64,000 nucleotides of DNA from Escherichia coli (GTDB taxonomy: Bacteria > Pseudomonadota > Gammaproteobacteria > Enterobacterales > Enterobacteriaceae), in the NCBI RefSeq assembly GCF_030013595.1, contig NZ_CP122770.1. The stretch is one strand, 5' to 3'. Shown piece after piece: positions 29,537 through 30,994 of the stretch. A program made the translations under genes and the position numbers. Under the pieces are notes generated by a model. It searched no databases and was not told the DNA's origin. It worked only from the letters and a program-made list of their open reading frames with translations. Each line of letters begins with the position of its first letter. Position 1 is the first letter of the stretch.

Positions 29537-29953
29537 TCAGTCATCTCCGAACATATTTTCAGCGTTTCTTCTGGTCTGGTCTTCACCGTCATTTCTCGAC
29601 AGACTCTGCTCTGTAAGAGGAGTACTGCAATCCACAGACGTATGGAGACCAGATTGTTTTTCCAGTAATTCAAGCAATTTCTTTTCAACCGAAAAAGCAC
29701 CTGGTATCACGCTGGAAATCACCTTATTAATATCATCCAGAGTCGTATTTTCTGTCAGTAACTCCGATATCAGCAAAGGAAGACGTTTATCTATAGCTGC
29801 AAACGCCGCACCAGTAACTAACATCGCGCGCATGAAACGTCCCCGCTCCTTCAGTTTTTCATTTGCAATGAGCTCATCTGCTATCTTATCTCCTGTCCGT
29901 TCATCCGGGAAAAGTTCAAATGAGCAGCGTCTGGATTTATTTTCATCACTCAT
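29537..29953 (-). CDS. parR: ParR/StbB-like adaptor of type II partition system
   Basis: 138 aa; LLISELLTENTTLDDINKVISSVIP resembles StbB; downstream of parM. Confidence 0.65.
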   Translation of the reverse strand: MSDENKSRRCSFELFPDERTGDKIADELIANEKLKERGRFMRAMLVTGAAFAAIDKRLPLLISELLTENTTLDDINKVISSVIPGAFSVEKKLLELLEKQSGLHTSVDCSTPLTEQSLSRNDGEDQTRRNAENMFGDD

Positions 29954-30925
29954 TAGTCACACCACCTTTCATTTTTATCATTCCCATGACTAAATCAAAC
30001 TGCGGGGATGAGCTCAGATAAAAGCGCTCATCAGGAACCTTAGTCAGGTTCTTCACAGCCTCGGCCACAATTTCAGCCCCACCACCAACACACATTACAT
30101 GTGTATAGTCGGTGAAACGGCTGATGACATCATTAACTCGTTTAATAAGCAACTTCTGCCGTTCATTGATAACATTAATGATAGACTCACGCTGTTCAGC
30201 ATTATAAATGCGACGGGAAAGGTAGTCAGGTTCATTACGGTGCACAATGATATTGTCAGCCTGGAATGAGCTCACTCTTGTATTAGCATGTACAGCCATC
30301 TGTTCCTTAACCCCGGATGTAATCAGGGACACGCCGATATTTGGATCACACCAGGTTTTTGTAATCCCTGTCATTTTGCTACGAACATGCGACACATCAA
30401 GAGTTGTACCACCGAGATCTACGATCAAAAGGGATTCATCATCCTCAAGCCCCGCAAGAACACTGAAACCAGCGGGAATACTTTCAGGAAGAACGGAAAC
30501 ACTGCGAATAACAAATGCATCACTCCCCTGCACCCGTACTTCACGCATCACATTTTTTTCTTTCTTTCAATGTTTTGCTTATTTTTCTGATTGTTGGCGT
30601 CAAGGTATTCAGAGATCGGCAATGTGACGATGACATCAACAGGCTGCGCTTTCAGGCCGGTCTGCTGTAGCGCATGCTGAATGGCCACAACATTCACATC
30701 ACTGTACTGATAGCGTGTTTCAGTCGTTACGACAGCATCAGCACTTAATGGATCAAATGAAAACTTCTCGCCGTCGATCTCGTAATTAGCCGGGGCAGCA
30801 TCATCCAGTAAACTAAAAGACCATTCCGGTTTAAAGCTGTTAGGGCTGATTAACGTTTTCACGTCACCATCCTCCAACCAGGCAAGTTTAATGTTGGTAG
30901 AACCATCATCAATAAAGATTTTCAT
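29946..30925 (-). pseudogene. parM: parM/stbA actin-like partition ATPase, split by frameshift at an A7 tract (~30551-30560)
   Basis: N-part [14 protein letters not shown]...NIERKKKM and C-part ...PESIPAG...GGTTLD...GGGAE both match ParM in different frames. Confidence 0.7.
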
Positions 30926-30994
30926 AACCAGTCTCCGTTGCTCATAAACAAATAGAAAAAACAAACATGCTTCATACATGCAATGTATATTCAA

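What the first reader, a model, noticed from the sequence alone, without database searches (positions are those of the whole stretch)
29946..30994. parM split by a frameshift at an A7 tract while parR and the second partition system are intact
ParM-like N-terminal and C-terminal halves lie in different frames and overlap at the run of seven T (plus strand, ~30551-30560; seven A on the coding strand). A true mutation would leave the type II system dead and the ParA/ParG system to maintain the plasmid; it could also be slippage-dependent expression or a homopolymer error. The shufflon anomaly is also at a homopolymer, which raises suspicion of sequencing artefacts.
Basis: seen in the sequence. 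Interest (0 to 1): 0.4.

Follow-up and report, generated by a model that had tools for sequence, protein, structure and literature searches.

The report
One-base homopolymer frameshift splitting parM
The plasmid-segregation gene parM is cut in two here by one missing A in a run that is normally eight A's; in public data this same change goes with error-prone sequencing rather than with plasmid lineage, so it is most likely an assembly error and at most an ordinary, very recent knockout.

Summary
On the minus strand, an R1-type parM is split at an A7 run (window 30553-30559). The N-terminal piece is 30548-30925 (125 aa) and the C-terminal piece is 29946-30548/30551 (200-201 aa). Adding one A gives a 981-nt gene that is 100% DNA-identical to the intact 326-aa parM of related IncI1 plasmids.

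A8 is the normal state. PLSDB holds A6=5, A7=34, A8 up to 981 and A9=0. Metagenome contigs hold 78 A8 and 1 A7.

The A7 call follows sequencing method, not ancestry:
- 20 of the 34 PLSDB A7 records come from one Nanopore R9.4.1-only project, as do all 12 of 644 RefSeq complete-E. coli records.
- Two clonal plasmids from that project differ only at this base over 20 kb.
- A7 sits on at least five parM haplotypes and never carries further damage.
- A7 is about 18 times commoner on contigs under 5 kb than on contigs of 10 kb or more.

My estimates are: homopolymer under-call about 0.65, real recent -1 slippage null allele about 0.30, programmed or slippage-dependent expression about 0.04. parR/stbB, ParA and the small downstream protein are intact, but the "ParG" label has no sequence support. 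Only reads or Sanger sequencing can settle it. Interest is low.

The parts
29946..30925 (-). parM (stbA-type, actin-like partition ATPase), 980 nt here against 981 nt when intact; frameshifted
   Evidence: Pfam StbA_N and the ParM C-terminal domain are split over two frames. With one A added it is 100% DNA-identical to intact parM WP_000688514.1. E=1e-103 to R1 ParM structures 1mwk/4a62.
30553..30559 (-). A7 homopolymer (T7 on the plus strand); A8 in the normal allele
   Evidence: Sequence. Tract lengths in relatives. Censuses.
30548..30925 (-). N-terminal parM fragment, 125 aa, ending ...ERKKKM*; carries only the phosphate-1 motif (DDGSTN)
   Evidence: The exact 125-aa product is on record in 578 blocks of public assemblies.
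29946..30548 (-). C-terminal parM fragment, 200 aa from an ATG that overlaps the upstream TGA (TGATG); carries phosphate-2 (DLGGTT) and adenosine (GGGA) motifs
   Evidence: Gene callers on other A7 records aa and 200 aa with a 1-nt overlap.
29537..29953 (-). parR/stbB adaptor gene, intact; its start overlaps the parM stop by 8 nt (ATGAGTGA)
   Evidence: Pfam Plasmid_stab_B, 7.6e-28. Protein identical to WP_001278818.1 of R64 and p14EC033e.
30926..31338 (-). Intergenic region upstream of parM: promoter-like site (TTCAGA-16-TATAAT, 31021-30994) and repeated TGCATT/ATGCAA-containing 14-20 nt direct and inverted repeats; putative parC centromere/operator
   Evidence: The function is inferred from position by analogy with R1 parC and was not tested.
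31339..31647 (-). 102-aa protein downstream of ParA, in the position of a type Ib centromere-binding protein; intact
   Evidence: Identical to WP_000030199.1. No Pfam, NCBIfam or PDB match.
31734..32378 (-). ParA-family Walker ATPase, 214 aa, intact
   Evidence: Pfam AAA_31/MipZ/CbiA. NCBIfam ParA_partition over its full length but below the curated cutoff. Protein identical to WP_001144036.1.

Best explanation
The locus is the ordinary IncI1 double partition region: parA, a small gene, then parM-parR of the R1 ParMRC type. The split of parM is a one-base contraction of a coding A8 run to A7.

The most likely cause is a homopolymer under-call in the assembly the window comes from (long-read or otherwise imperfectly polished data). 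Under this reading the real plasmid carries A8 and an intact 326-aa ParM.

Shown: A8 is the normal state, and the A7 call tracks sequencing method and assembly quality rather than plasmid ancestry. Inferred: that this particular window is one of those miscalls.
For: 1) Repairing one base gives a gene 100% DNA-identical to intact parM. There is no other damage in parM, and parR, parA and the small gene are intact.

2) The censuses are dominated by A8 and contain no expansions.
- PLSDB, 1042 records: A6=5, A7=34, A8 up to 981, A9=0.
- Metagenome contigs: 78 A8 and 1 A7.

3) There is a strong batch effect.
- 20 of the 34 PLSDB A7 records are ETEC strains of PRJNA917806, as are all 12 A7 records among 644 RefSeq complete-E. 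coli records with the locus.
- That project used ONT R9.4.1 only, with Bonito, Trycycler and Medaka and no short-read polishing.
- A Salmonella accession series (CP120716/CP1214xx) gives A7 in three and A6 in three plasmids of about 284-290 kb.
- pCTXM1-MU2 (A7) was assembled from PacBio with Quiver only, and it has two further 1-nt deletions (one in a G6 run) relative to its twin RCS76_pI.
- Long A7 contigs of the series JACWAX..JACWBW have several neighbouring genes split as well.

4) Clonal isolates ETEC4070 and ETEC4071 carry the same plasmid. Over 20 kb, their only difference is this tract.

5) A7 lies on at least five parM haplotypes. For the three I could check, an A8 counterpart exists.

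6) In the exact-protein census, the A7 stub is in 578 blocks and intact ParM in 57,458. The A7 share is 7.2% on contigs under 2 kb, 3.3% at 2-5 kb, 0.13% at 20-50 kb and 0.29% at 50-200 kb. The odds ratio for under 5 kb against 10 kb or more is 17.8.

7) ETEC1739, whose 1.8-kb par region is 100% identical to the window, has only two PGAP-flagged frameshifts in the 50 kb of its 89-kb plasmid that I viewed (parM and traY). So a window with a single broken gene is compatible with that kind of assembly.
Against: The window otherwise looks clean. Among conserved genes only parM is split. Its other 8-mers (4613, 8272, 9636, 52249) are kept, whereas ETEC1739 has A7 at 8272 and C5 at 19357. Its substitutions against a hybrid-assembled relative look like ordinary SNPs.

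I could not find the window's source record or its sequencing platform.

A7 is not zero in better data: 0.13% of 20-50 kb contigs and 1 of 79 metagenome contigs. If 0.13% were the true allele frequency, up to about 40% of the A7 calls on contigs of 50 kb or more could be genuine. 'Blocks' are only a proxy for samples.
Confidence: 0.65

Rival explanations
1. It is a genuine, very recent -1 replication-slippage mutation (A8 to A7) that inactivates ParM. The N fragment holds only the phosphate-1 motif. The C fragment holds the phosphate-2 and adenosine motifs, so neither should bind ATP or polymerise. The plasmid would then rely on the adjacent ParA system, on pnd and RelE/ParE-type addiction modules, and on conjugation. 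Premature termination 600 nt upstream could also lower parR expression, because parR overlaps the parM stop.
For: An A8 run is a classic slippage hot spot (established knowledge). A low background of A7 persists in good-quality contigs (0.13-0.28% at 10-50 kb) and in 1 of 79 metagenome contigs. The window shows no other sign of poor consensus. An IncI1 plasmid can live without ParMRC: pESBL-EA11 has no parM/parR at this backbone position, and it stays stable through partition, pnd and transfer (PMC7602700). pCTXM1-MU2, deposited with A7, was stable over 9 passages (PMC6155088).
Against: No A7 lineage is visible. A7 is scattered over haplotypes, never accompanied by secondary decay, never matched by +1 alleles, and strongly tied to sequencing method and contig length. 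None of about 630 RefSeq complete-E. coli records outside the Nanopore-only project has it.
Confidence: 0.3
2. The tract is a functional device. Either parM expression depends on transcriptional or translational slippage at the A run, or the run is a phase-variable switch that turns type II partition on and off.
For: The run is long enough for low-level RNA-polymerase slippage (established knowledge). The -1 allele creates a TGATG stop-start overlap that could allow re-initiation of the C-terminal piece. Length variants A6, A7 and A8 all exist in databases.
Against: The in-frame A8 allele is the norm (about 94% of PLSDB records, 78 of 79 metagenome contigs, about 99% of assemblies), so no recoding is needed. 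The variants track technology. The RNA downstream of the tract folds no better than expected (z=-1.7). The closest solved homologue, R1 ParM, has KKA rather than KKKN here, so the run is not a conserved feature of the family.
Confidence: 0.04
3. The two fragments are both made and reassemble into a working split ParM.
For: The TGATG overlap could couple translation of the two pieces.
Against: The break lies inside the StbA_N domain (profile position 124 of 158), not at a domain boundary. There is no lineage in which the split is maintained.
Confidence: 0.01

Closest known systems
R1/NR1 ParMRC (stbA-stbB) type II partition system
   Same: ParM aligns over residues 1-317 with R1 ParM structures (E=1e-103). 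The downstream gene is the StbB/ParR family (PF10784). An upstream intergenic region carries a promoter-like site and short repeats where parC would be.
   Different: In this window parM is interrupted by a 1-nt deletion. The centromere is not defined experimentally. R1 ParM has KKA where this protein has KKKN, so R1 lacks the A8 run.
Homopolymer under-calling in long-read-only assemblies (ONT R9.4.1, PacBio CLR/Quiver)
   Same: The variants are deletion-only (A7, A6, never A9). They are concentrated in long-read-only projects, differ between clonal isolates, and come with other homopolymer contractions in the same assemblies.
   Different: The platform of the window itself is unknown, and the window shows few or no other such errors.
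Double par loci such as par1/par2 of pB171 (type II plus type Ib on one plasmid)
   Same: A ParA-type and a ParM-type system lie side by side, which would give redundancy if one is lost. The double par locus of pB171 is cited in PMC7602700; its par1/par2 layout is from my own knowledge.
   Different: Here the two operons are in tandem on one strand rather than divergent. The small protein after ParA has no detectable family, and neither system of this module has been tested. The published IncI1 work (pESBL) concerns a different ParA module.
Homopolymer contingency loci and transcriptional-slippage rescue of poly(A) frameshifts (Buchnera, Shigella mxiE)
   Same: It is a coding A/T run whose length decides the reading frame.
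   Different: There is no evidence of switching within lineages in accurate data. The normal allele is in frame. The variants correlate with sequencing method. The comparison rests on my own knowledge of those systems.

Membership tests
Type II (ParMRC) plasmid partition system | Actin-like ATPase ParM with N- and C-terminal ParM domains and ATP-binding motifs | tested here: met
   StbA_N (1.2e-64) and the ParM C-terminal domain (9.1e-73) are present. E=1e-103 to R1 ParM structures. The DDGSTN, DLGGTT and GGGA motifs are visible. As written, however, the gene is split into two ORFs.
Type II (ParMRC) plasmid partition system | Small DNA-binding adaptor ParR encoded directly downstream | tested here: met
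   PF10784 Plasmid_stab_B, 7.6e-28. The start overlaps the parM stop. The protein is identical to the R64 protein.
Type II (ParMRC) plasmid partition system | Centromere parC of repeated ParR sites upstream, overlapping the promoter | tested here: inconclusive
   There is a promoter-like site and a few 12-20 nt direct and inverted repeats. The promoter-like count equals the shuffle expectation, and no binding data exist.
Type II (ParMRC) plasmid partition system | Uninterrupted parM reading frame (a functional motor) | tested here: not met
   A7 instead of A8 puts a stop at 30550-30548. Whether this is true of the DNA molecule cannot be told from the sequence.
Type Ib ParA/ParG-like partition system | Walker-type ParA ATPase | tested here: met
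   KGGVGKT is at the N terminus. Pfam AAA_31/MipZ/CbiA hits. NCBIfam ParA_partition covers the full length but scores below its cutoff (53.9 against 180 bits).
Type Ib ParA/ParG-like partition system | Small ribbon-helix-helix centromere-binding protein (ParG/ParB type) | tested here: inconclusive
   A 102-aa ORF is in the right position, but it has no Pfam, NCBIfam or PDB match. No structure was predicted.
Programmed frameshift or slippage-dependent gene | The out-of-frame arrangement is conserved among homologues | tested here: not met
   The in-frame A8 is present in up to 981 of 1042 PLSDB records, in 78 of 79 metagenome contigs, and in 57,458 blocks against 578.
Programmed frameshift or slippage-dependent gene | Stimulatory RNA structure next to the slippery run | tested here: not met
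   The downstream 93 nt fold with z=-1.7; 9 of 200 shuffles fold as well.
Phase-variable contingency locus | Tract length varies within lineages in accurate sequence data, in both directions | tested here: not met
   Only contractions are seen and A9=0. No A7 occurs outside the ONT-only project among the RefSeq complete E. coli records. The variation follows platform and contig length.
Sequencing or assembly homopolymer artefact | Read-level evidence that the true tract is longer than the consensus | not testable with these tools
   No reads, and no identified source record, are available for the window.
Sequencing or assembly homopolymer artefact | The same miscall recurs in error-prone data sets independently of ancestry | tested here: met

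The most novel reading that the evidence does not exclude
The A8 run in IncI1 parM is a real hypermutable off-switch. Under this reading, -1 and -2 alleles arise continually and are tolerated because the neighbouring ParA system, addiction modules and conjugation keep the plasmid. They might be partly rescued by RNA-polymerase slippage and by TGATG re-initiation. This would give plasmid populations a standing mixture of ParM-on and ParM-off copies.
Probability: 0.05. Interest if true: 0.4.

Novelty: not a real feature. Interest (0 to 1): 0.07.

Why it matters
It matters mainly as a data-quality lesson. This A8 run, embedded in GAAAGAAAG-A8, appears to be one of the most miscalled sites of the IncI1 backbone. 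It produces 'frameshifted ParM' pseudogenes in RefSeq (all 12 A7 records found in complete E. coli genomes come from one Nanopore-only project) and split 125-aa and 200-aa 'proteins' in protein databases. Anyone inferring loss of type II partition in IncI1 plasmids from assemblies should check this base first. If the change were real, it would be an unremarkable null allele in a plasmid that carries redundant maintenance systems.

Tried and rejected
1) I tried to find the window's source record, and so its platform. A 25-kb query against RefSeq complete E. coli and against PLSDB gave at best 85-89% coverage at 97.5-98.6% identity, so the source remains unknown.

2) I looked for signs of a poor consensus elsewhere in the window.
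- Alignment to pRHB41-C14_3 and ETEC1739, plus a tblastn split-gene scan, found parM as the only conserved gene split.
- The mismatches show no obvious motif pattern.
- This neither proves nor excludes an error at the tract.

3) I tested whether A7 records are enriched among GenBank-only (not RefSeq) accessions. The result, 17 of 34 against 15 of 54 sampled A8 records, is weak (p=0.04), and I do not rely on it.

4) I intended to use the pESBL Tn-seq study as a direct test that ParA, not ParM, maintains IncI1 plasmids. I rejected this because its octamer GATAACAA is absent around the window's parA, and pESBL-EA11 carries a different ParA module and no parM at all. It is usable only as an analogy.

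5) I looked for a stimulatory RNA structure after the run and found nothing beyond chance.

6) I tested the 'ParG' identity of the 102-aa protein and found no family or structure match.

7) I checked the shufflon C4/C5 difference as a possible second homopolymer error. The C4 form occurs in four RefSeq plasmids next to an sfx site, so it is not usable as evidence.

Full report
**What is in the sequence**

The minus strand between 29.5 and 32.4 kb carries four genes in tandem:
- a ParA-family Walker ATPase (31734-32378, 214 aa);
- a 102-aa ORF (31339-31647);
- after a 413-bp spacer, parM (29946-30925);
- a parR/stbB-family gene (29537-29953) whose ATG overlaps the parM stop by 8 nt.

parM is broken. 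The coding strand reads GAA AGA AAG AAA AAA ATG TGA, with a run of seven A at window 30553-30559. The frame that starts at the ATG at 30925 therefore stops at 30550-30548 after 125 codons. The rest of the gene continues in another frame, from GTG 30551 or ATG 30548, down to 29946.

Pfam puts StbA_N profile positions 1-123 in the first piece. It puts positions 125-157 plus the complete ParM C-terminal domain in the second. This is a clean single-base frameshift within one gene. The real start aligns with residue 1 of R1 ParM.

**What the normal state is**

The 1.8-kb region is 99.9-100% identical to more than a thousand IncI1-type plasmids. Nearly all of them are one base longer and carry an annotated 326-aa ParM. 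Direct reading shows:
- A8 in p14EC033e, R64 and pRHB41-C14_3;
- A7 in the window and in ETEC1739;
- A6 in pMTY14759_IncI.

Adding one A to the window gives a 981-nt gene with zero differences from intact parM of p14EC033e. ParA, the 102-aa protein and ParR are identical in protein sequence to those of R64. There is therefore no secondary decay anywhere in the locus.

**Tract-length census**

I used 76-79-nt queries that differ only in tract length. PLSDB holds 1042 records with this context:

| Tract | Records |
|---|---|
| A6 | 5 |
| A7 | 34 |
| A8 | at most 981 |
| A9 | 0 |

A pattern scan of public metagenome contigs that allows A6 to A9 returned 79 contigs: 78 with A8 and one with A7, the latter a 1.1-kb contig.

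In a collection of about 15 billion proteins, the exact 125-aa A7 stub is indexed in 578 blocks. The exact intact 326-aa protein is indexed in 57,458 blocks, so the stub is about 1%.

**The A7 call follows method, not ancestry**

- Twenty of the 34 PLSDB A7 records are porcine ETEC strains of one project. So are all 12 A7 records among the 644 RefSeq complete-E. coli records that carry the locus.
- The strain names and plasmid sizes match the supplement of Vereecke et al. 2023 (PRJNA917806). Its methods state ONT R9.4.1 flow cells, Bonito, Trycycler and Medaka, with no short reads.
- ETEC4070 and ETEC4071 are clonal: their chromosomes are 5,067,014 and 5,067,019 bp. They carry the same 95.1-kb plasmid, and over 20 kb the only difference is T7 against T8 at this site.
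- ETEC1739 also has shorter runs than the window at 8272 (A7 against A8) and 19357 (C5 against C6). It also has a frameshifted traY.
- A Salmonella accession series (CP120716/CP1214xx) yields A7 in three and A6 in three plasmids of about 284-290 kb.
- pCTXM1-MU2 (A7) was assembled from PacBio with Quiver only. It shows two further 1-nt deletions, one in a G6 run, relative to its otherwise identical twin RCS76_pI.
- Long A7 contigs of the series JACWAX..JACWBW have ParA, the small gene, parR or the parM C-half additionally split.
- A7 occurs on at least five different parM haplotypes. For the three I could check, an A8 counterpart exists.

The share of A7 among contigs falls with contig length and then rises again:

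| Contig length | A7 share |
|---|---|
| under 2 kb | 7.2% |
| 2-5 kb | 3.3% |
| 20-50 kb | 0.13% |
| 50-200 kb | 0.29% |
| 0.2-1 Mb | 1.6% |

The odds ratio for contigs under 5 kb against 10 kb or more is 17.8. A real allele should not depend on how long its contig is. This U-shape fits poor short assemblies at one end and unpolished long-read assemblies at the other.

**What this means for the window**

I could not identify the source record, so the platform is unknown.

Against an error: the window is otherwise clean. No other conserved gene is split, the other 8-mers are preserved, and the substitutions look like ordinary SNPs.

This is weaker evidence than it looks. In the 50 kb of ETEC1739's 89-kb plasmid that I viewed, only two genes are flagged as frameshifted. 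The GAAAGAAAG-A8 context seems to be the single most miscalled site of this backbone.

If the 0.13% seen on 20-50 kb contigs is taken as an upper bound for the true allele frequency, then at least about 58% of A7 calls on contigs of 50 kb or more are excess, that is, artefacts. Combining this with the batch evidence, my estimates are:
- about 0.65 for an assembly error;
- about 0.30 for a genuine, very recent -1 slippage mutation;
- about 0.05 in total for the functional readings (programmed or slippage-dependent expression, phase variation, or a working split ParM).

**If it were real**

The N fragment keeps only the phosphate-1 motif (DDGSTN). The C fragment keeps phosphate-2 (DLGGTT) and the adenosine motif (GGGA). 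The break lies inside the StbA_N domain. By established knowledge of the actin fold, this would be a null allele.

The new stop overlaps an in-frame ATG (TGATG), so re-initiation could make the 200-aa piece and preserve coupling to parR. This is inference only.

Redundancy is plausible but untested for this module. The published IncI1 partition study (pESBL, PMC7602700) concerns a different ParA module. pESBL-EA11 has no parM at this position, and its parS octamer is absent here. That study shows only that an IncI1 plasmid can be maintained without ParMRC.

**Programmed or regulated frameshifting**

This is not supported:
- The in-frame allele is the rule.
- No expansions exist.
- The downstream RNA folds no better than shuffles (z=-1.7).
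- R1 ParM lacks the KKKN run.

**Comparison with the known**

The locus is an ordinary member of the R1/NR1-type ParMRC family sitting next to a ParA-type system. The arrangement recalls double par loci such as that of pB171. The 'ParG' label for the 102-aa protein has no sequence support.

The anomaly itself belongs with known homopolymer under-calls. At most it is an ordinary slippage pseudogene.

**Verdict**

Novelty: none. Interest: low. The decisive test is read support or Sanger sequencing across window 30540-30570.

Noticed in passing
window 63299-63303 (next to an sfx-like site CCACGTACCGGATTGGCAC): There is a C4 run where pRHB41-C14_3, ColIb-P9 and most plasmids have C5. It lies 8 nt upstream of an inactive-orientation shufflon 'prepilin' segment. 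The exact C4 context occurs in four RefSeq plasmids, so it may be a natural sfx-junction variant rather than an error.
   Followed up: partly
RefSeq/PLSDB records NZ_CP1225xx-CP1228xx (loci L001, L004, L008): One Nanopore R9.4.1-only project contributes every A7 (frameshifted) parM record I found among RefSeq complete E. coli genomes. Its records also show other homopolymer contractions (A8 to A7 at the site matching window 8272, C6 to C5 at 19357, and a frameshifted traY). This is a systematic data-quality trap for pseudogene surveys.
   Followed up: yes
L013 (pESBL-EA11, NC_018659.1 49994-50919) against window 29537-32378: At the same backbone position, next to the Y-family polymerase gene, pESBL carries a different ParA plus 100-aa module and no parM-parR. 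IncI1 plasmids therefore appear to swap partition modules at this site.
   Followed up: partly
window 32430-32545 and 31310-31336: Short GGATAYC/CGGATA-type repeats, partly palindromic (GGATATCC; TATCGGATACC..GGTATCTGA), flank the parA and small-gene pair on both sides. They are candidate centromere or operator sites of the ParA system. The second set also scores as a terminator-like hairpin.
   Followed up: no
window 10388-10411: There is a 24-nt insertion relative to ETEC1739, made of extra copies of a 12-nt unit (TCCTTCCATGCG). The region 10148-10630 is highly divergent from pRHB41-C14_3.
   Followed up: no
window 35466-38169: About 2.7 kb has no counterpart in the closest plasmid, pRHB41-C14_3, and lies between two otherwise collinear blocks. 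I did not examine its content.
   Followed up: no
Annotations of homologues: The same genes carry misleading names in public records. The 102-aa protein is called 'molecular chaperone GroEL', and ParM is called 'recombinase' or 'parA: type I plasmid partitioning protein'.
   Followed up: no
window 11633 (T6) and 26127: These are single-base differences from pRHB41-C14_3 that the window shares with ETEC1739 (T6 against T7 in an intergenic stretch near pndC; an extra G that splits a 103-aa hypothetical ORF). They could be alleles or shared systematic miscalls.
   Followed up: partly
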